Shown piece after piece: positions 4,088-42,462 of a stretch of DNA of 49,484 nucleotides; the stretch's first letter is position 1, and each line of letters opens with the position of its first letter. The notes under the pieces were generated by a model. The model worked only from the letters and a program-made list of their open reading frames with translations, was not told where the DNA came from and searched no databases. The position numbers and the translations under genes were made by a program. This stretch comes from Chloroflexota bacterium. GTDB lineage: Bacteria > Chloroflexota > Dehalococcoidia > Lucifugimonadales > UBA3495. Location of the stretch: contig JACZYV010000002.1 of assembly GCA_022570905.1 (NCBI GenBank), positions 1 through 49,484 of the forward strand, in the 5' to 3' direction.

Positions 4088-7000
4088 TCATCCCGCATCT
4101 CCCATCCTGAGTACCTGCTGCACTTGTATCTTTGAGCTCAACCACGCCAGCCAGACCACCGTTACCACGGTGACCACCGCCAAAACCAGATAGGACACCG
4201 AGAGCGTCAACCAATCGGTGGTGAATGCCATGGGCGGCGTAACGCGCTCTCCTTCTTCGGCCACCTCCATCAGGGGCAAGAGGCTCGATCCGATCAGTTG
4301 GCCTACCCACGTTCCCAGGGCCACGCCGCATAGAACGATCAAGAATAGATTAAACCATACGATACCCCGTAATTGTCCGCCGGTCGCGCCCAGGGTCCGC
4401 AGCAGGGCGAACTCGGTCTGACGTTCCTTGGTGTCAAGGAACGAGAACAACATCACTCCCGAGCCGCTGGCCAGGGCCACCGCCAAGAACAAAAGCACCA
4501 GAAGGGCGCCCCAACCGGCGTTCACCAACGGTTGGTCCACCCGCGACGCCACCATGGCCTCCGCGTCAAATACCTCCCTGATGCTGACGCCCAACCGCTT
4601 CATTGACTCGTTGACCCGGCCGGCATCTCCCGCATCTCCCAGGTTATTCGACGCGCCAGGGACCGGCACGCCGGGGGTAGAGGTCAGGTCGATCCATATC
4701 TCGTTGGCTCCGGACAGGGGTATGCGGCTGTGTTGATTGGACGCGGCCGCAAACCTTTCCAGGTCCACCACCACAAAGGGTTTGTCCCCCGGGTCCAGCG
4801 TTGGGAAATAATTGGCCACGGCGGCGATGTTGACCAGCACGGAAAAGGTGGACAGCCCCAAGATCACGTCTTCGCCCACGGAGGCATCGGCCAGCTTCAA
4901 GAACTCTTCGTTGACCACCGCCGGAACCGGGGCCTCCGTTGGACCGGGTCTCAATCCCCGCATGCCGACGCCGCCGCTGGCCCAGCTGAACCGCATGGAT
5001 AATGGGAACTGGCCGCCCCCCGCCGACCCGCTGGTCTCCAGGGCGTATAGGCCCGGCCGCGAGAAGTCTTGGATCACCGACCAATCCTCCGGCGATCGAA
5101 AATCGGCCAAGGTCACCGGTCCGCTGGGAGTCAACGCCTCCAGTCTTCCCAGGAACACTGCTCCCAAATCGTCCGACCCAAAGGTGCGGAATCGGTCGGT
5201 GACTTGCAAGGACTGAAGCGTGAAGGGAGGAACCAGAGAGATGCTGCGCGCCTCGTTGGTGAAACGGCGCCCGACGGCAACCACCGGCGACAGGTCGGAT
5301 TGGATCTTGTTCCAGCCCTGCTCTCCCAAATCACCCACCCAAGTGTCGAAATACAGTCCTTGAGCGTCACGCAGCCTGGCCCATAGGTTGGCCCCCGAGT
5401 CGAGCCCGGCTGGTTGCACCCAGATGGACAGACCGGTCACGTCAGCGGGCAAAACCAAACCTTGGGGGCCTTCCGGCCCGTCCAACAGCAACTGGGCCAA
5501 CTCGTTGATCGACTTCCCGCCGGCCAGGTCGTCCCTGAACCAGGCCACATCCGCGATCCGGGAAGCGTCCACCGCCAGAACCGCGGCCGAGGAACTAAAC
5601 CCAGTGGTGGTGATCTGCCCGTTGGTGCGGTACACGTCCGCGGCGTGGAGCACCTCCGGGAATTTCCGCACTTCTTCGGCGAACCTTCCGCCAGGTCTAG
5701 CGCTGGAAACCCCGCTGTGACGGATCCTCAAGTCAGCTCCCGCCGCGTATAGGGCCCGCTCCTTCTGACTCCGTTCCAATGTCGAACTGAAGGCACTGCC
5801 GATGACACCGAGAGCGGTGGCCAAGGTCAGCAACACGATCAAGATACCCGGCACCATTGGGTCTCGGGATACATGGCGCAGCGAGTGCACCAACCAAGAC
5901 GGAGCGAAGGGACCGGCCAGCCGCGAAAGAAGCATGGCGAACCACGGGAATATCCGCATGACCACCAACCCGACCGCCAGAAGCCCCAGGACCGGTCCCA
6001 ACATCAGGCTGTAGTCGATCTCCAGTTCCCGGCTGCCCACCGATTGGACCAGGAACGAACCCCGGCTTTGGATCTGCCACCAAAGAAGGCCGATGAGGGC
6101 CAGCAGCAGGAAGTCCAGGTAGTAACGATGCAGGAAAGACGCCGTGGGAGGCCGGGCCCCGGTCTGCCTCGCTTCCACGATGCCCTGTCTGGCCGCCGCC
6201 AGGGTGGCCACCGTGAACACCACCACCGCGAGAATCCCTCCGGCCAGCCCCAGCAGAACGGCTCCTTGAGACACAGTTACCGGCACACCGGATAATTGGT
6301 CGGCCCCCCCGCCCAAACTGAAGAAAACGTTGCCTAGGACCCTGACCACTCCCATGGCCAAGAACGGTCCAATTATCACCGCCGGGATACCCAGCAGCAG
6401 ACCCTCTCCCAGTCCTAACATGCCCACCTGCGCCGTGGTGGCGCCCCGGCTTTTCAGCATGGCGATCTCGCTGGAGCGGGAACGGACGATCAAGCCGGCC
6501 ACCAAAGCCAGATAATAAAGCAGGATCCCGGTGATCAGAAACACCACCAGAAACAGGGGCACCCTGGCCAACAATAATTGCTCGTCGAAGTCGGTCAGCA
6601 GGTTGTCCAGCCGGATGGAGAAGCTGGAATTCTTCAGATTGAATCTGATGTTATTCTCGGCCCGGAGGATGGTCTCCCGCAGGTCCCCCACATCTCCGGC
6701 CCGCAGTCCCTCCCGGTCCAGGTAGTAGAACCAGGTGACATCGGTGTACAGGGTCGGATACTCGCCGAGCACCCGGTTCAAGATGGCCTCTTCGCTGGTG
6801 AACAACGGCACGATGGTCCACCGGTCGTTCTTGACGCTGAAGTCCTTTTTGACCCGATACCAGAACTCGTCATCCGGGTCGACAAGCTCAAAAACCCCGG
6901 ATATCCGCACCGGCATGGAGGGCGGGTCGGTGAACGACGCCGCCGGGAAGACGTCCATCGTCTGGCCGACCTCCAGGCCCAGCAGCTCCAGGCCCAGACC

Positions 7001-36853: not shown

Positions 36854-36931
36854 GCCCCGGTCGTCTAGCCCGGTTAGGACGCCACCCTTTCAAGGTGGAG
36901 ATCATGGGATCGAAGCCCATCCGGGGTACCA
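36854..36931 (+). tRNA. tRNA-Glu (anticodon UUC), CCA encoded
   Basis: Cloverleaf read by eye: acceptor GCCCCGG/CCGGGGT (G1-U72 wobble), D arm GTCTAGCCCGGTTAGGAC, anticodon arm CCACC-CTTTCAA-GGTGG, T arm ATGGG-ATCGAAG-CCCAT, then ACCA. Confidence 0.85.
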
Positions 36932-37749: not shown

Positions 37750-38490
37750 GTGCGGCTATGGCCCCCTTGCCCAGCTCAGGTTATGGTTTCTGGCGCGCCG
37801 GTTCTTGTCCCTATTCCGGCCACCGTGCTATCATTGCCTCAGCCTCGAATCACGGCCCAAACCGGTCTAAACCAAAGGCCGGAGCCCCTTCCCCAGGCTC
37901 GAGATCTGCATTTGAACAACCAGCAAGACCGTCAGGTCTATCTATCCGTGGACGATCCCTTCACCGGTAGTATTCTCAGCGATATCCTGGGAAATCTTAC
38001 GGGCGCATCCCCGAGACCATCTGTTGAAGATTGGCTGATGGGAATAGCGCAAGCAGCCCTGGATGTGGCGCTGGACGGTACAGAGGCGTCGCAGATCAGC
38101 CTGCTTATCACCAACGACGACACGGTTCACGGCCTGAATGCCCGGTTTCGAGGACTGGACGAGGTGACTGACGTGCTGTCTTTCTCCCCGGACTACCCCG
38201 GCCACTGGGAAGGCGAAGGGGGACCGCCCCGGGATCTGATCGGAACCGGCGGCTTCGATTTCGTCTTGCCGCCCGGCGAGCCTTCTCCCCTGGGAGAAGT
38301 GATTGTGTCCTACCCCCAGGCGAAACGTCAGGCGGAAGAGCGGGGCGCGCCCCTTGAACATGAGTTGGCCCTTCTGGTAGTACATGGGGTGCTGCATCTC
38401 ACTGGACACGACCATGTGGGACCTGAAGAAACGGCGCTGATGCAGTCCAAGGAGCGCACAGCTCTGGCAAAACTGAACATTTCAGAGTAA
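37750..38490 (+). CDS. ybeY: rRNA maturation endoribonuclease YbeY (5' end probably shorter than the ORF)
   Basis: TDVLSF and the zinc motif HGVLHLTGHDH. The true start is probably between 37912 and 38038, because the upstream part is Pro-rich and non-homologous-looking. Confidence 0.8.
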   Translation: MRLWPPCPAQVMVSGAPVLVPIPATVLSLPQPRITAQTGLNQRPEPLPQARDLHLNNQQDRQVYLSVDDPFTGSILSDILGNLTGASPRPSVEDWLMGIAQAALDVALDGTEASQISLLITNDDTVHGLNARFRGLDEVTDVLSFSPDYPGHWEGEGGPPRDLIGTGGFDFVLPPGEPSPLGEVIVSYPQAKRQAEERGAPLEHELALLVVHGVLHLTGHDHVGPEETALMQSKERTALAKLNISE

Positions 38491-38554: not shown

Positions 38555-40255
38555 ATGACCGGCCAGGCCATAAACGAACCTGCCTCCCCCGCCCAGGTCT
38601 TCTACCGCAAGTGGCGGCCTTCCAGCTTCAGCCAACTGGTGGGGCAGGACCACGTCTCCAGCACACTGCGCCAGTCCATCAAGCAGGGGCGGGTCTCCCA
38701 CTCCTACCTGTTCTGCGGTCCCAGAGGCAGCGGCAAGACCACCACCGCCCGGATCATAGCCAAAGCGGTGAACTGCCTCGATACCCAGGACGGCGACCCC
38801 TGCAACGCCTGCGCCAACTGCGTGTCGATCAACCGCGGCCAGTTCATGGACATCATCGAACTGGACGCCGCCAGCAACCGGGGCATCGACGAGATACGCG
38901 ATATTCGGGAGAAGGTGAACTTCGCCCCCGCCCAGGGAATGCGCAAGGTCTACATCATCGACGAAGCCCACATGCTGACCGACGCGGCCTCCAATGCCTT
39001 CTTAAAGACACTGGAAGAGCCGCCTCCCCACGTCATCTTCATCCTGTGCACCACCGAAGTCCACAAGATCCTGCCGACCATCATCTCCAGATGCCAGCGG
39101 TTCGACTTCCGCCGCATCGCCTCAGATTTGATCTACGGCCGCCTGGCCGACATCGCCGAAGCCGAAGGCGTCAGTGTCGAGCCGGAGGCGCTGCGGTTGG
39201 TGGCCCGCCACTCCGCCGGCAGCCTGCGGGACGCCGAAAACCTGCTGGAACAACTGGTGGTATCTTCCCCCGAAGGCGCCGGCGGCGTCACGTTGAAGCA
39301 GGTAGAAGAACTTTTGGGCCTGGACAACGGAGAAAGTTCTCTGGAATTGGTCAAATACCTGCTCATGGGTAATACGTCGGCCGCGCTGTCGGCGGTGAAC
39401 CGGGCCGTCTGGGGGGGCACCGACCTACGTCAACTGCACAAACAGACCATAGAGTTGCTTAGAGCCGTGATGCACCTGCAATGGGGCTCAGAAGACGCTG
39501 TGGACCTTTCTGAAGATGTTACCGCCCAACTCAGGGAGTTGTTGGGCAACATGCCGTCGTGGCGCGTAGTCAGAGGGCTGAAGATTTGGGGGGACGTCAA
39601 TATGCGCTATGACGCGCCGTCCACACTTCCCTTGGAGTTGGCGGTGGTGGAGATCTGCGAAGACACCGCCCCTCCGGCAACACAGCCCGCTCCGGCCGCG
39701 CCGCCCGCCCGGACCGCAGCCCCGGCCCAAGCAAGCCGCGCCCCTAGTGGGAACGCCCCCGCCCAGTCTCCGGCACGGCGCCGTGCTCCAGATGAGCCAC
39801 GCCCAGCCGCGGCAAGACCCGCAGCCAGCGCTCCAGCACAACCCACCAGCCAACGCCGGCCGGCCCCGGACCCCGGACCCATCTCCGAGCTTGGCGCACA
39901 ATGGCTGGCGGCCGTCAAAGTGCTTAACCGTCAAAAGGGCAAGAAATATAACCTGGGAGCCCTGCTTCGCGACTGCAAGGCCAACGCAGTCTCTCTGGAG
40001 GGCAACACCCTGGTGTTGGGCTTCTCCAACAAAGCCAACCTGGAACGGATGCAAGAAGAGATGGATGACCCTGGGTCCCGCCGTCAGGTGAGCGAGGCCG
40101 TTACCGCCTCGTTTGGGGCGACCTATGAGTTCCGGCTCACCATGGCCAACGGAAGCGGGGCCACCGCCAACACGGTGAAAACCGCGCAACAGAGTTCCCT
40201 GGTCCGCACGGCCCTGGGTATGGGCGCCAGGGTCCTAGAGGAGATCGAAGAATGA
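38555..40255 (+). CDS. dnaX: DNA polymerase III subunit gamma/tau
   Basis: YRKWRP, GPRGSGKTT, the zinc module CLDTQDGDPCNACANC, IIDEAHML, SRCQRF, and a Pro/Ala-rich linker. Confidence 0.9.
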   Translation: MTGQAINEPASPAQVFYRKWRPSSFSQLVGQDHVSSTLRQSIKQGRVSHSYLFCGPRGSGKTTTARIIAKAVNCLDTQDGDPCNACANCVSINRGQFMDIIELDAASNRGIDEIRDIREKVNFAPAQGMRKVYIIDEAHMLTDAASNAFLKTLEEPPPHVIFILCTTEVHKILPTIISRCQRFDFRRIASDLIYGRLADIAEAEGVSVEPEALRLVARHSAGSLRDAENLLEQLVVSSPEGAGGVTLKQVEELLGLDNGESSLELVKYLLMGNTSAALSAVNRAVWGGTDLRQLHKQTIELLRAVMHLQWGSEDAVDLSEDVTAQLRELLGNMPSWRVVRGLKIWGDVNMRYDAPSTLPLELAVVEICEDTAPPATQPAPAAPPARTAAPAQASRAPSGNAPAQSPARRRAPDEPRPAAARPAASAPAQPTSQRRPAPDPGPISELGAQWLAAVKVLNRQKGKKYNLGALLRDCKANAVSLEGNTLVLGFSNKANLERMQEEMDDPGSRRQVSEAVTASFGATYEFRLTMANGSGATANTVKTAQQSSLVRTALGMGARVLEEIEE

Positions 40256-40551
40256 ACCGAAACATGATGCGTCAGGCGCAGAAGCAACTGGCCCAACTGC
40301 AGAAGATCCAGGAAGAGCTGGAGACTCTCACCGTTGAGGGAAGCGCCGGCGGCGGTGCGGTGAAAGTGGTCATGACCGGCAAACAGATCGTGGAGTCCGT
40401 GACCATCGAGCCCGAGGCTGCCGAAGAAGTGGACCTGCTCCAGGAGATGGTCCTGGCGGCGGTAAACGATGCGTCCACCAAAGCCCAGGAACTGGCCGCC
40501 CAGAAGATGAGCGTGGTCACCGGCGGCATGAACATCCCGGGGCTTTCTTAG
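40252..40551 (+). CDS. ybaB: YbaB/EbfC family nucleoid-associated protein
   Basis: 99 aa reading MMRQAQKQLAQLQKIQEEL...VEGSAGGGAVKVVMTGK. ATGA overlap with the dnaX stop. Confidence 0.9.
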   Translation: MNRNMMRQAQKQLAQLQKIQEELETLTVEGSAGGGAVKVVMTGKQIVESVTIEPEAAEEVDLLQEMVLAAVNDASTKAQELAAQKMSVVTGGMNIPGLS

Positions 40552-40557
40552 TATAAT
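40529..40557 (+). promoter_or_regulatory. Candidate internal promoter (TGAACA-17 nt-TATAAT) at the ybaB 3' end
   Basis: A consensus -10 TATAAT starts 1 nt after the ybaB stop, 25 nt upstream of ATG 40582. Confidence 0.4.
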
Positions 40558-40581
40558 TATTCCAAGCTAGCAGCAAACATC

Positions 40582-41361
40582 ATGACGATCACTTCATTGG
40601 CAAACGAGATTGGACTTCCTTCGCTCAATAAAGCCTTGGTCAAGGGATTTCCTCACGAACATGAGGCTTCCGTTAAGAAGGCGTCGGGCTACATCGCAGA
40701 CCGGATCAGCGAAGACACGATCGTTGCCGAAGACATAGATTCTTTCATCAACGATACTCTTAACCTTCTTCCAAAATCCAAACGGCCAGACGTTTTGGAG
40801 TTTCTATTAGCCAAGAAGGGGATACTTCTCTGCCAGGCAGGCGCCATCGAAAATGGCCTCAAATTCTATGACGAGGCGTTGGCGGTAAAAGAGACACCAT
40901 CCACTTGGGCGCTCAGAGGAACGGCTTTGCTTCAGGTAGACCGCCTAGAGGAGGCATTTGACGCTTTCGGAAAGGCCTTTGATCTACGCCAGGAGTTTGG
41001 GGCCCAGAAACGATCGTACTTAAACGATTTGATCCTCGCTTGGAGCGGCAGCGCACTACTTCGCGGACTCGGCGGAATCCTCGATCAGAACGTCTCAGAA
41101 GCCCAAAAAGGGGTGGAAGAATTCCTCGGCGTTTCCTCCAAAGCCAACGCCGAAGGTCTCGGTACCTCGTTGATGCAACTAGCTGTGGATGAGACTGCTA
41201 CCGCAAACTTGAAAGCCGCTTTAGAAGAACTAGAGCTTATGGTGAGACTTTTATCGATCAAAGACCCATTTGAGGGTTGGCGGGAATTATCCAAGGAGAT
41301 CAGCAAGGTGTGGCCAAAGGGTGTTTCCGCGGTGGACGCTATTCGAGAGCAACGTGATTAG
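40582..41361 (+). CDS. Hypothetical alpha-helical protein with TPR-like repeats; possible PIN partner
   Basis: 259-aa ORF in a lower-GC segment. TPR-like stretch GLKFYDEALAVKETPSTWALRGTALLQVDRLEEAFDAFGKAFDL. The stop abuts the PIN gene start (TAG TTG). Confidence 0.6.
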   Translation: MTITSLANEIGLPSLNKALVKGFPHEHEASVKKASGYIADRISEDTIVAEDIDSFINDTLNLLPKSKRPDVLEFLLAKKGILLCQAGAIENGLKFYDEALAVKETPSTWALRGTALLQVDRLEEAFDAFGKAFDLRQEFGAQKRSYLNDLILAWSGSALLRGLGGILDQNVSEAQKGVEEFLGVSSKANAEGLGTSLMQLAVDETATANLKAALEELELMVRLLSIKDPFEGWRELSKEISKVWPKGVSAVDAIREQRD

Positions 41362-41775
41362 TTGGAATCGATAGTCGTTGATTCAAGCATTATCGTCGCT
41401 TCTTTTTTAGCGAATGAGAAAAACCACCAACATGCGCTGGAATATATCAACGGCCTCGAGCGTGGTGACTACACCTTCCATTTGCCCATGCTGGCGAGCA
41501 TAGAAGTGACATCTGCGATACGGAGACGAGCAACCCGAAATTGGATCGCGCTCGTGTCTACGTGGAATAAAAGTGTGGCGGACTGGGAGCGAGACGATAT
41601 GTTGATTATGTATCCGCTTGACCGAGACCGCATGAATAAAGCATCGGATATCGCGGCACGATACGGGTTTAGAGCCCAAGACTGTATTTTTGCAGAACTC
41701 GCACTGGAGTTAAACGTCCCGTTCAAGACCTTCGACAAAGAACTCTTGGAGCGGTTCCCCACGGCTTCAGAATGA
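41362..41775 (+). CDS. PIN-domain protein (VapC-like ribonuclease)
   Basis: Acidic tetrad candidates are D7 (VVDSS), E48 (SIEVTS), D107 (AQDCIF) and D126 (TFDKE), at ~137 aa. TTG start. The stop overlaps the recR ATG (ATGA). Confidence 0.7.
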   Translation: MESIVVDSSIIVASFLANEKNHQHALEYINGLERGDYTFHLPMLASIEVTSAIRRRATRNWIALVSTWNKSVADWERDDMLIMYPLDRDRMNKASDIAARYGFRAQDCIFAELALELNVPFKTFDKELLERFPTASE

Positions 41776-42386
41776 CTCAAGAAAACATCTCCGGAGCAGC
41801 CCCTTCCTTGGCCCGGCTGGTGCAGGAACTGAACCGGCTGCCGGGCATTGGCCCCAAAAGCGCCCAGCGCCTGGCGTACTACATCATTCGGCTGCCCGAC
41901 GAAGACGCCTACGCCCTGGCCGACGCCGTGACCTCCGTCAAGCAGAATATCGTCTTTTGTGAGGAGTGCCAGAACCTGACCGACGCCTCACCATGCCAGA
42001 TCTGCTCCGACCCCCGCCGGGACCGGACCATGCTCTGCGTGGTTGAGGACCCCCTGGATGTCCTGGCCATGGAACGCACCCGGAGCTTCCGCGGCCTGTA
42101 CCATGTGCTCCATGGCGTCATCTCGCCGATCAACGGAGTCGGGCCCGACCAGTTGAAGCTGAAGGAACTATTCACCCGTCTGGCCCTGCCGGAGGTGACC
42201 GAGTTGGTCGTGGCCACCAACCCTACTCTAGAAGGCGAGGCGACGGCCATGTACATCCGCCGCCATCAGGGCCGGGACGACCTGCGGATCACCCACCTTG
42301 CCAGAGGGCTGCCCGTGGGAGGATCATTGGAATATTCCGACGAGACCACGTTGACGCGAGCATTTCAGGGCAGGCAGGAACTCTAA
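41772..42386 (+). CDS. recR: Recombination protein RecR
   Basis: LPGIGPKSAQRLAYY HhH motif, zinc finger CEECQNLTDASPCQIC, and Toprim (VVEDPLDVLAME...ATNPTLEGEATA). Confidence 0.92.
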   Translation: MTQENISGAAPSLARLVQELNRLPGIGPKSAQRLAYYIIRLPDEDAYALADAVTSVKQNIVFCEECQNLTDASPCQICSDPRRDRTMLCVVEDPLDVLAMERTRSFRGLYHVLHGVISPINGVGPDQLKLKELFTRLALPEVTELVVATNPTLEGEATAMYIRRHQGRDDLRITHLARGLPVGGSLEYSDETTLTRAFQGRQEL

Positions 42387-42462
42387 TCATGACCAAGTTT
42401 ACCCGGTCGATTCAGGGCCGCCGGAAGATTTAAGCCAAGAGATTCGATCCGGAGCTTCAACC

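What the first reader, a model, noticed from the sequence alone, without database searches (positions are those of the whole stretch)
40529..41775. Lower-GC two-gene cassette (259-aa TPR-like protein plus PIN nuclease) inserted into the conserved dnaX-ybaB-recR operon
**Established background**
- dnaX, ybaB and recR are adjacent and usually co-transcribed in most bacteria.

**What the sequence shows**
- Here 1.2 kb lies between ybaB (ends 40551) and recR (starts 41772).
- My hand counts of four 60-nt lines inside the insert give about 42-57% GC, against about 67% for one ybaB line.
- A consensus TATAAT begins 1 nt after the ybaB stop, with TGAACA 17 nt upstream.
- Gene 1 (259 aa) is helical, with at least two TPR-like repeats. 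It ends ...DPFEGWRELSKEISKVWPKGVSAVDAIREQRD.
- Its TAG stop is followed directly by the TTG start of a 137-aa PIN-domain protein with plausible catalytic residues D7, E48, D107 and D126.
- The PIN stop overlaps the recR ATG (ATGA), so recR translation is now coupled to the insert.

**Inference**
- This looks like a horizontally acquired toxin-antitoxin-like or defence-like pair.
- The upstream partner is three times the size of a normal VapB and has no obvious DNA-binding fold.
- Its C-terminal ~30 residues resemble the short W...S-x-x-E/D-x-I-R-x-x-R tails I associate with PIN-partner antitoxins. That recollection is from memory and unverified.
- This suggests a sensor (TPR) fused to an antitoxin.
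- Placement inside a replication/recombination operon could tie its expression to DNA-damage or replication status.
Basis: partly seen in the sequence, partly recalled or inferred. Interest (0 to 1): 0.7.

Follow-up and report, generated by a model that had tools for sequence, protein, structure and literature searches.

The report
TPR-antitoxin and PIN toxin cassette
Two low-GC genes between ybaB and recR form a VapBC-like toxin-antitoxin pair whose antitoxin carries a TPR repeat domain instead of a DNA-binding domain, and related marine SAR202 bacteria keep, swap or delete this pair at exactly the same spot.

Summary
A 259-aa helical protein (40582-41361) and a 137-aa PIN protein (41362-41775) sit between ybaB and recR. 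They have the lowest GC3 of 45 ORFs in the window, and the PIN stop overlaps the recR ATG.

- **PIN protein.** It is VapC-like, with invariant D7, E48, D107 and D125 (not D126).
- **259-aa protein.** Its last ~45 residues (…VWPxGVSAVDAIREQR) are its most conserved part. The same tail ends ordinary ~90-aa RHH, AbrB/MazE and Phd/YefM antitoxins that precede homologous PIN genes in other phyla. Relatives carry up to 416 aa and five or six canonical TPRs.
- **History.** It is not a recent insertion. At least 20 distinct SAR202/Dehalococcoidia loci carry the pair in this slot, always low-GC and always ATGA-coupled to recR. It is also not housekeeping. Close relatives (RecR 90-91% identical) have empty sites, one site is a deletion scar, and one PIN is internally deleted.
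- **Allele exchange.** Sharp identity breakpoints and 2-4-fold excess dS show that the TPR domain and the PIN are exchanged as modules by recombination.

Function is inferred, not shown. This is a new variant of a known kind.

The parts
40252..40551 (+). ybaB, the upstream core gene and left boundary of the variable slot
   Evidence: Pfam YbaB_DNA_bd, E 3e-27. Nucleotide identity between relatives collapses exactly at its stop codon.
40529..40557 (+). Promoter-like site TGAACA-17-TATAAT, probably not a conserved feature
   Evidence: Matches 10 of 12 positions. The -35 lies in the conserved YbaB codons. A -10-like hexamer is found only in L007/L008 (TACAAT), and the intergenic region (8-34 nt) is otherwise unconserved.
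40582..41361 (+). Gene for the 259-aa TPR-scaffold antitoxin-like protein
   Evidence: More than 172 homologues, mostly about 259 aa. AlphaFold2 pLDDT 89.2, 14 helices. Foldseek gives only weak TPR hits. dN/dS 0.13-0.35.
40726..41151 (+). TPR-like helical repeat region (aa 49-190), the hypervariable module
   Evidence: The profile matches consensus TPR at aa 84-136. Helices pair as 68-85/89-102 and 106-118/122-134. Identity falls to 31% between genomes whose RecR is about 90% identical. Relatives have 5-6 canonical TPRs and up to 416 aa in the same slot.
41203..41361 (+). C-terminal tail (aa 208-259, three helices; core aa 215-259 = 41224-41358), the inferred PIN-neutralising element
   Evidence: It is the most conserved part of the protein, with invariant L223, I226, F230, E239, W244, P245, R255, E256 and R258. 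It is shared with short RHH, AbrB and Phd antitoxins that sit next to PINs. It is also a recombination breakpoint zone.
41362..41775 (+). Gene for the 137-aa VapC-like PIN nuclease (TTG start abutting the upstream TAG)
   Evidence: Pfam PIN, E 4e-10. D7, E48, D107 and D125 are conserved. The top Foldseek hits are VapC toxins: 2fe1, 7by3, 7vwo and Shigella VapC.
41460..41770 (+). Recombinant 3' two-thirds of the PIN gene, an allele different from that of the closest relatives
   Evidence: Window versus L007 identity is 80-95% up to about 41450, 48-62% from 41470 to 41760, and 93% again from recR. PIN dS is 1.23 against 0.36-0.63 in the flanks.
41772..41775 (+). ATGA overlap between the PIN stop and the recR start (translational coupling)
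   Evidence: Present in 17 of 17 aligned loci, and by gene coordinates in L108, L111, L112 and L114-L116.
41772..42386 (+). recR, the downstream core gene and right boundary of the slot
   Evidence: Pfam RecR domains. Identity between relatives recovers at its start codon.

Best explanation
**What it is**
- The two genes form a VapBC-type toxin-antitoxin-like module with an unusual antitoxin.
- The PIN protein is a VapC-like Mg2+-dependent ribonuclease.
- Its partner neutralises it through a conserved C-terminal three-helix tail (…LSIKDPFEGWR…VWPxGVSAVDAIREQR). This tail is an exchangeable 'linear neutralisation' element. Elsewhere it is attached to RHH, AbrB or Phd DNA-binding domains. In SAR202 it is attached to a TPR array.
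- With no DNA-binding domain, the module does not autoregulate. It is transcribed as part of ybeY-dnaX-ybaB-[TPR][PIN]-recR-recO and is translationally coupled at both junctions.

**How it evolves**
- It is an old, dispensable cassette held in one fixed slot of a SAR202 subclade.
- Divergent alleles of the TPR module and of the PIN module persist in the population. Homologous recombination anchored in ybaB, the conserved tail, the PIN 5' end and recR shuffles them.
- The cassette is sometimes deleted.

**Likely role**
- The most likely role is in genetic conflict, meaning abortive-infection-type defence or addiction. The variable TPR domain would be the ligand-binding, regulatory part that decides when the tail lets go of the PIN.

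**Shown and inferred**
- Shown: homologies, architecture, synteny, coupling, composition, presence/absence and mosaicism.
- Inferred: tail-PIN binding, toxicity, RNA target and the trigger.
For: **Homology and architecture**
- The PIN is VapC-like by Pfam, invariant acidic residues and fold.
- The tail is the most conserved segment.
- The tail recurs at the C-terminus of RHH/ParD-like, MazE/AbrB and Phd/YefM antitoxins.
- Ten of 11 distinct short-tail antitoxin genes are followed by a PIN. Those PINs are homologous to this one (hhalign 98.4%, 31% identity).
- No DNA-binding domain is detected. The N-domain is TPR-like, and relatives carry 5-6 strong TPRs.

**Operon embedding**
- The same gene order is found in at least 20 distinct loci.
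- The PIN-recR junction is ATGA in 17 of 17 loci.
- The TPR/PIN junction is 0, -13, -4, +3 or +6 nt.

**Accessory status**
- L028-L030 are empty sites with RecR 90-91% identical to the window.
- L029 nests within the occupied clade.
- L031 is a deletion scar that keeps the TPR start and the last ~20 PIN codons.
- The L017 PIN has an internal deletion.

**Allele exchange**
- PIN identity is uncorrelated with RecR identity (rho 0.09), whereas DnaX and RecO give 0.61-0.66.
- dS of swapped modules is 2-4 times the flank dS, with dN/dS below 0.35.
- Breakpoints are sharp.
- L112 pairs a window-type PIN (78%) with a 42% TPR allele.

**Composition**
- GC3 is lower than all four flanking genes in 17 of 17 loci.

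**Concept**
- Modular antitoxins with grafted neutralising elements are established (PMC10440598).
- The VapC cleft accepts a C-terminal antitoxin helix (PMC5499597).
Against: - There is no direct evidence of toxicity, of tail-PIN binding or of any trigger.
- PADLOC finds no known defence family.
- The neighbours are not defence genes, and no relatives occur on viral contigs or plasmids.
- A fixed position in a core operon across a deep clade is atypical for toxin-antitoxin systems.
- dN/dS shows purifying selection, not positive selection, on the TPR domain in the pairs tested.
- The tail has no solved structure.
- The PIN model is only moderate (pLDDT 72.6).
- Most loci come from metagenome-assembled genomes or metagenome contigs, so some mosaicism could in principle be assembly chimerism. 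However, the breakpoints recur at the same functional boundaries in independent assemblies.
Confidence: 0.6

Rival explanations
1. The pair is a host-serving nuclease complex of the replication/recombination operon. The PIN would be a structure-specific RNase or DNase (for example acting on primers, R-loops or repair intermediates), and the TPR protein would be its adaptor to YbaB, RecR, RecO or DnaX rather than its inhibitor.
For: - The position is invariant and the PIN is ATGA-coupled to recR in every occupied locus.
- Both genes are under purifying selection.
- Homologous tail-antitoxin/PIN pairs sit directly upstream of uvrB in Armatimonadota and two genes upstream of recA in a Burkholderiales MAG.
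Against: - Close relatives lack the pair entirely, and one site is a deletion scar.
- The PIN is internally deleted in L017 while the TPR gene is intact.
- The TPR domain is only 31% identical between genomes whose RecR, YbaB and DnaX are 85-96% identical. That is hard to reconcile with binding a conserved host partner.
- The tail is shared with bona fide antitoxin architectures.
- The fold neighbours are VapC toxins, not FEN- or NYN-type enzymes.
Confidence: 0.12
2. The pair is a purely selfish addiction module that survives by hitch-hiking. By placing its stop codon over the recR start inside an essential-gene operon, it makes imprecise deletion costly. It brings no benefit to the host.
For: - Toxin-antitoxin homology.
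- Persistent atypical composition.
- Coupling to recR.
- Decay events: the L017 PIN deletion, and split or truncated PINs in L024 and L025.
- Losses leave either clean spacers or a scar that preserves the recR-coupled end.
Against: - Several deeply diverged alleles of both modules are maintained and recombined under purifying selection. This suggests balancing or frequency-dependent selection, as seen for immunity loci.
- TPR arrays expand to 416 aa in some relatives, which is costly for a mere addiction antidote.
- This rival overlaps the best explanation in mechanism and differs only in who benefits.
Confidence: 0.2
3. The pair is a recent horizontally acquired insertion specific to this genome.
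For: - Low GC relative to the flanks.
- Empty sites in relatives with RecR 90-91% identical.
Against: - The same slot is occupied in at least 20 distinct loci spanning RecR identities of 68-96%, all with low GC.
- The window's TPR gene has the same dS as its flanks when compared with L007 (0.55 against 0.36-0.63).
- There are no flanking direct or inverted repeats.
- L031 shows loss by deletion.
Confidence: 0.05

Closest known systems
Type II VapBC toxin-antitoxin systems (VapC PIN toxin with VapB antitoxin; structural neighbours are P. aerophilum PAE0151/PAE2754 of the PIN.COG4113 group, K. pneumoniae and M. tuberculosis VapBC, Shigella VapBC and FitAB)
   Same: - The antitoxin gene lies directly upstream of, and abuts or overlaps, a ~137-aa PIN gene.
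- The four acidic residues are conserved.
- The fold is VapC-like.
- The antitoxin's conserved part is its C-terminal helical region. In VapB and FitA this region occupies the VapC cleft (PMC5499597).
   Different: - The N-terminal RHH, AbrB, Phd or HTH DNA-binding domain is replaced by a ~200-aa TPR-like array, so promoter autoregulation is unlikely.
- There is no conserved promoter of its own. The pair is embedded in, and translationally coupled with, the dnaX-ybaB-recR-recO operon.
- It sits at a fixed locus across a deep clade instead of at scattered sites.
- Sequence similarity to solved VapCs is below detection.
Short 'WPxGVSAVDAIRExR-tail' antitoxins with RHH/ParD-like, MazE/AbrB or Phd/YefM N-domains, next to PIN genes (Burkholderiales, Armatimonadota, Bathyarchaeia and others; unnamed family, no solved structure)
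   Same: - The C-terminal tail is the same (67-76% identity over 25-30 aa).
- The downstream PIN is homologous (hhalign 97.5-98.4%).
- The gene order is the same.
   Different: - They are 70-170 aa long with a classical DNA-binding domain.
- They lack the extra upstream helix motif LSIKDPFEGW.
- They occur in varied genomic contexts.
- Some carry tandemly duplicated tails.
Modular 'linear neutralisation' antitoxins, such as Panacea (PanA) carrying Phd-C, ZBD or PAD1 elements (NetFlax, PMC10440598)
   Same: A small neutralising element is attached to the end of an unrelated globular scaffold that does not itself neutralise the toxin. The scaffold and the element are swapped in evolution.
   Different: The scaffold here is a TPR array, not Panacea. 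That paper's main text does not mention TPR or tetratricopeptide.
Toxin-antitoxin-derived phage sensors and TPR-sensor immune proteins (CapRel-SJ46 fused toxin-antitoxin; Avs/STAND TPR sensors). This comparison rests on my own knowledge, not on a test here.
   Same: A variable protein-binding domain is linked to release of a toxic effector, and the sensor part is hypervariable.
   Different: There is no NTPase or STAND module, no PADLOC match and no defence-island context. The sensing function is entirely hypothetical.
Variable accessory 'hotspots' between conserved core genes (defence or toxin-antitoxin islands). This comparison rests on my own knowledge.
   Same: The flanks are conserved core genes. 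The cargo is variable, with presence/absence polymorphism and replacement by recombination in the flanks.
   Different: - The cargo is always the same two-gene family, with only alleles differing.
- The slot lies inside an operon with 4-nt translational coupling to recR.

Membership tests
Type II VapBC toxin-antitoxin system | The toxin is a PIN domain with the conserved acidic tetrad | tested here: met
   PF01850, E 4e-10 and 40.8 bits against a gathering score of 23.6. D7, D107 and D125 are invariant and E48 is at least 90% conserved in 35 sequences. Foldseek top hits are VapC toxins.
Type II VapBC toxin-antitoxin system | The antitoxin gene lies immediately upstream and abuts or overlaps the toxin gene | tested here: met
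   TAG is followed directly by TTG in the window. The junction is 0, -13, -4, +3 or +6 nt in 17 loci.
Type II VapBC toxin-antitoxin system | [quoted passage not shown] | tested here: not met
   There is no DNA-binding domain in Pfam or NCBIfam. The AlphaFold2 model is a TPR-like helical array. The upstream promoter-like site is not conserved.
Type II VapBC toxin-antitoxin system | The antitoxin's C-terminal region binds the toxin and blocks its active site | not testable with these tools
   This is inferred only. The tail is the most conserved segment and is shared with classical antitoxins next to homologous PINs. No multimer prediction was available, and the attempt at a fused-chain alignment failed.
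Type II VapBC toxin-antitoxin system | The toxin inhibits growth and the cognate antitoxin rescues it | not testable with these tools
   This requires expression experiments.
Type II VapBC toxin-antitoxin system | Accessory, patchy distribution | tested here: met
   There are empty sites in close relatives, one deletion scar and allele replacement. The locus itself, however, is fixed rather than scattered.
NCBIfam VapC equivalog (NF047959) | Score above the curated cut-off | tested here: not met
   13.2 bits against a cut-off of 80. This is a divergent PIN subfamily.
Tetratricopeptide repeat (TPR) proteins | 34-residue helix-turn-helix repeats recognised by TPR profiles | tested here: inconclusive
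   - The window protein is below threshold (TPR_1, 21.8 bits against 27.8).
- The family profile hits consensus TPR (E 1.5e-18).
- Tail-bearing relatives score up to E 1e-49 with 5-6 repeats.
- The model has paired helices, but the best Foldseek TM-score is only 0.42.
Known anti-phage defence systems (PADLOC-DB v2) | Match to a defence-system protein model | tested here: not met
   The 259-aa protein has no hit. The PIN has only a spurious Cas2 match at E 0.008.
Core dnaX-ybaB-recR operon component (housekeeping) | Present in all members of the lineage, with divergence tracking the flanking genes | tested here: not met
   L028-L031 are empty. PIN identity is uncorrelated with RecR identity (rho 0.09).
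Mobile element insertion (transposon or integrative element) | Flanking direct or inverted repeats, a recombinase, or presence on phages or plasmids | tested here: not met
   There are no meaningful repeats, no recombinase in the slot, and no relatives in IMG/VR or PLSDB.

The most novel reading that the evidence does not exclude
The ybaB-recR slot is a dedicated, population-level hypervariable immunity locus of SAR202.
- The TPR array of the antitoxin would directly sense a phage protein, or a replication or repair-state protein. On binding, it would release the VapC-like PIN from the conserved tail.
- Balancing selection would maintain many TPR and PIN alleles, and recombination would reshuffle them through the conserved tail and the core-gene flanks.
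- Coupling to recR would tie expression to the replication/recombination operon.
- This would be a new class of sensor-antitoxin (TPR-VapB), and a defence hotspot located inside a core operon of one of the most abundant deep-ocean bacterial lineages.
Probability: 0.25. Interest if true: 0.8.

Novelty: new variant of a known kind. Interest (0 to 1): 0.58.

Why it matters
- **Architecture.** If the inference holds, a VapB-type neutralising tail can be grafted onto a protein-binding TPR array in place of a DNA-binding domain. That extends the known modularity of type II antitoxins. It also offers a natural candidate for a sensor antitoxin.
- **Genomic setting.** The cassette occupies one fixed slot inside the dnaX-ybaB-recR-recO operon and is translationally coupled to recR. 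It is nevertheless dispensable and is reshuffled between deeply diverged alleles. This is a clear, checkable case of a variable locus inside a core operon.
- **Experimental handle.** It gives a simple test system (PIN, tail and TPR constructs) for a conflict system in SAR202, an abundant and barely tractable ocean lineage.
- **Annotation.** The WPxGVSAVDAIRExR tail is also a useful marker for finding PIN-partner antitoxins with any N-domain.

Tried and rejected
- **Fused TPR+PIN chain for AlphaFold2, as a stand-in for a complex.**
  - MAFFT misaligned the PIN homologues in a concatenated alignment (A5).
  - I dropped the idea. No multimer tool was available, so tail-PIN contact is untested.
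- **Word-based protein search with the 45-aa tail.** It returned only 14 short fragments. The exhaustive phmmer search was the informative one.
- **Sequence-profile searches of PDB.** The PIN family gave no hit at E <= 0.01. The tail gave only a chance match to a de novo protein. Only the fold search linked the PIN to VapC structures.
- **Defence and family libraries.** PADLOC and NCBIfam gave nothing useful.
- **Mobile-element carriers.** IMG/VR viral contigs and PLSDB plasmids hold no relatives.
- **Insertion signatures and RNA elements.** A repeat search found no insertion signature. Rfam found no RNA element in the cassette.
- **Internal promoter.** I rejected it as a conserved feature after aligning 17 intergenic regions.
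- **'Housekeeping gene' and 'recent insertion' readings.** I rejected both on the empty-site, scar, dS and synteny data.
- **Contexts of further short-tail antitoxins.** They sat on contigs too short to test the possible link to DNA-repair genes.
- **Literature.** Searches found no description of a TPR-domain antitoxin partnered with a PIN.
Full report
**1.

The ORF map shows dnaX (38555-40255), ybaB (40252-40551), a 259-aa ORF (40582-41361), a 137-aa ORF (41362-41775) and recR (41772-42386). The 137-aa ORF starts at a TTG that directly follows the upstream TAG. Its stop overlaps the recR ATG as ATGA.

GC falls from about 0.60-0.63 in the flanks to 0.48-0.53 across the two genes. Their GC3 values (0.55 and 0.56) are the two lowest of 45 ORFs in the window (median 0.76, sd 0.075).

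The promoter-like site TGAACA-17-TATAAT exists at 40529-40557.

The second protein is a PIN domain above Pfam's threshold (E 4e-10). The first gives only sub-threshold TPR hits on its own.

One correction is needed. The fourth acidic residue is D125, not D126, which is a lysine.

**2. What the two proteins are**

*The PIN protein.*
- D7, D107 and D125 are invariant and E48 is nearly so in 35 relatives.
- Sequence profiles find no solved structure.
- An AlphaFold2 model (pLDDT 72.6) has VapC toxins as its best structural neighbours: PAE0151, VapBC from K. pneumoniae and M. tuberculosis, Shigella VapC and FitB, with TM-scores of 0.55-0.6.

*The 259-aa protein.*
- It has more than 172 relatives, nearly all about 259 aa, named at best 'TPR repeat protein'.
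- Its model is confident (pLDDT 89, pTM 0.84) and consists of 14 helices.
- Foldseek returns only weak hits, all TPR proteins (best E 8e-3).
- The family profile matches consensus TPRs at aa 84-136.
- It therefore has no DNA-binding fold and no housekeeping family.

**3. The tail is the key**

In alignments of 24 and 81 relatives, the last ~45 residues are by far the most conserved part (LEELELMVRLLSIKDPFEGWRELxKEISKVWPxGVSAVDAIREQR).

A scan of species-representative genomes found 13 full-length relatives, all in Chloroflexota/Dehalococcoidia/SAR202 MAGs. It also found eight loci in Burkholderiales, Armatimonadota and Bathyarchaeia that match the tail only.

Those eight are ordinary ~90-aa antitoxins, each followed at once by a PIN gene. 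Their N-terminal domains are RHH/ParD-like in Burkholderiales and AbrB/MazE-like in Bathyarchaeia. The Armatimonadota domain gives only a weak MraZ-like match.

An exhaustive phmmer search with the tail found 103 cluster representatives. They fall into two groups:
- long proteins of 190-416 aa with the tail at the very end, several carrying five or six strong canonical TPRs (TPR_1 E down to 1e-49);
- short MazE- or Phd/YefM-type antitoxins ending in WPxGVSAVDAIRExR, some with the tail duplicated in tandem.

Ten of 11 distinct short-tail antitoxin genes have a PIN downstream. Those PINs are homologous to the SAR202 PIN (hhalign 98.4% and 97.5%).

The tail is a PIN-partner module that has been grafted onto different scaffolds. 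This is the 'linear neutralisation' logic described for modular antitoxins (PMC10440598). It also fits the VapC cleft that accepts a C-terminal antitoxin helix (PMC5499597).

No solved structure contains this tail.

**4. It is not a recent insertion**

Every full-length relative whose context could be read lies in ybeY-dnaX-ybaB-[TPR-tail]-[PIN]-recR-recO. This holds for 17 distinct loci at first and for L108, L112 and L114-L116 later. L108 carries a 416-aa TPR-tail protein in the same slot.

The PIN stop overlaps the recR ATG as ATGA in 17 of 17 loci. The TPR/PIN junction is 0, -13, -4, +3 or +6 nt. The ybaB-TPR spacer is 8-34 nt and unconserved.

The -35 hexamer is simply the conserved YbaB codons for GGMNIPG. 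An internal promoter is therefore not a conserved feature.

In all 17 loci both genes have lower GC3 than all four flanking genes. Low GC is a lasting property of the cassette, not a sign of recent arrival.

No flanking repeats mark an insertion. No relatives occur on viral contigs or plasmids.

**5. It is not housekeeping either**

I ran an unbiased scan with a RecR alignment and annotated the loci with HMMs.
- Three loci with RecR 90-91% identical to the window (L028-L030) have ybaB and recR only 19-57 nt apart.
- One locus at 77% (L031) has a 110-nt spacer.
- All more distant loci (RecR <= 61%) are empty.

In a tree of DnaX+YbaB+RecR+RecO, L029 nests inside the occupied clade of the window.

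The L031 spacer is a deletion scar. It begins with ATGACGATA… (MTIGTL, the start of the TPR gene). In the frame that ends at the TGA over the recR ATG, it encodes LPLVTFASLLQGRVPRASR*, which corresponds to the last ~20 codons of the PIN.

In L017 the PIN has an in-frame internal deletion (57 aa remain) beside an intact TPR gene.

The pair is therefore ancient in this subclade, dispensable and repeatedly lost.

**6. Alleles are shuffled**

Within the clade whose RecR is 87-96% identical:
- the TPR N-domain drops to 31% identity;
- the PIN drops to 43%;
- the tail stays at 76-91%.

PIN identity is uncorrelated with RecR identity (rho 0.09) and with TPR identity (rho -0.11). DnaX and RecO track RecR (rho 0.61-0.66).

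This is not just fast protein evolution, because synonymous divergence of the odd modules is 2-4 times that of the flanks.
- Window versus L007: PIN dS 1.23, TPR dS 0.55, flanks 0.36-0.63.
- L002 versus L015: TPR dS 1.79, PIN dS 0.47, flanks 0.5-0.7.
- dN/dS is 0.13-0.35 throughout.

Sliding-window identity shows sharp breakpoints at four places: the ybaB stop, the start of the tail, about codon 35-45 of the PIN (window ~41460), and the PIN/recR ATGA.

L112 combines a window-type PIN (78%) with a 42% TPR allele in flanks that are 92-94% identical.

Divergent alleles of both modules are thus maintained and recombined. The conserved tail and the core genes serve as recombination anchors.

**7. 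Mechanism proposed**

*Shown:* a VapC-like PIN; a partner ending in a PIN-associated antitoxin tail on a TPR scaffold; operon embedding with translational coupling; accessory status; modular allele exchange.

*Inferred:*
- The tail binds and blocks the PIN.
- The free PIN is a toxic RNase.
- Without a DNA-binding domain, the module relies on the host operon for transcription.
- The variable TPR array is the regulatory or ligand-binding part.

I put about 0.75 on the toxin/neutraliser relationship and 0.6 on the whole statement. Whether the benefit is phage defence, stress control or pure addiction is open.

There is no PADLOC match and no defence-island context. The pairs tested show purifying selection on the TPR domain, not positive selection.

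**8. Rivals**

- *A host-serving repair or replication nuclease with a TPR adaptor.* The fixed position favours it, as does the observation that homologous pairs sit next to uvrB and near recA in other phyla. The empty sites, the scar, the L017 deletion and the hypervariable TPR domain count against it.
- *A purely selfish addiction module hitch-hiking on recR coupling.* It shares the mechanism and differs only in who benefits.
- *A recent genome-specific insertion.* Synteny and dS contradict it.

**9. Novelty**

I found no paper describing a TPR-domain antitoxin partnered with a PIN/VapC. The NetFlax main text does not mention TPR, and the PIN-superfamily classification does not either.

The kind (VapBC-like toxin-antitoxin system, modular antitoxin) is known. 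The TPR scaffold is a new variant. So is the fixed, recombining, recR-coupled slot inside a core operon.

All functional claims await the simple expression, binding and population-genomic tests listed under next steps.

Noticed in passing
window 42387-42462: The window has a 76-nt recR-recO spacer. In most related loci recO starts 2-20 nt after recR. Alignment identity to L007, L015 and L114 drops to 7-40% here, which suggests a small insertion or rearrangement.
   Followed up: no
L031:865-974: The 'empty' ybaB-recR spacer is a deletion scar. It keeps the first codons of the TPR gene (MTIGTL…). It also keeps the last ~20 codons of the PIN (LPLVTFASLLQGRVPRASR*), still overlapping the recR ATG.
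   Followed up: yes
L017:1759-1932: The PIN gene is reduced to 57 aa by an in-frame internal deletion (N-terminal 17 aa fused to the C-terminal ~40 aa). The upstream TPR-tail gene and the ATGA coupling to recR are intact.
   Followed up: partly
L022-L026 (Armatimonadota/Capsulimonadaceae), about 5790-6560: A homologous short tail-antitoxin + PIN pair sits directly upstream of uvrB in five loci. The PIN is split in L024 and truncated in L025. In the Burkholderiales locus L020 the pair lies between pgpA and cinA-recA. A possible recurrent association of this family with DNA-repair genes was not tested statistically.
   Followed up: partly
P0227, P0228, P0258, P0259, P0261, P0267, P0268: These Phd/YefM-type antitoxins carry two (in one case three) tandem copies of the WPxGVSAVDAIRxxR tail. 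This suggests bivalent binding of PIN dimers.
   Followed up: no
L118-L120 (archaeal-type contigs with ribosomal L7Ae/S28e/L24e genes): The MazE-type tail antitoxin P0253 has no PIN downstream. The next gene is a convergent GNAT acetyltransferase. It may be an orphan antitoxin.
   Followed up: partly
L028-L030, spacers just upstream of recR: The three clean empty sites share a similar sequence just before the recR ATG (GCGCAC..TC.ATAAATG), although the tree does not place them as sisters. The 'empty' state may itself be an allele that is exchanged.
   Followed up: no
window 37750-38490: The YbeY ORF as listed is 246 aa, with GC1 (0.72) above GC3 (0.62). Relatives are called at 157-199 aa, and similarity starts around aa 25-95. 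The true start is probably further downstream.
   Followed up: no
window 39600-39900: A Pro/Ala-rich low-complexity linker in DnaX (tau) has GC 0.73. It is poorly conserved in length and sequence among relatives.
   Followed up: no
window 36854-36928: A single tRNA gene is the only Rfam match in the whole window.
   Followed up: no
L003/L004:1-967 and L112:1-110: DDE transposase genes lie a few kb upstream of ybeY in two of the long-read SAR202 contigs. They are not adjacent to the cassette.
   Followed up: no
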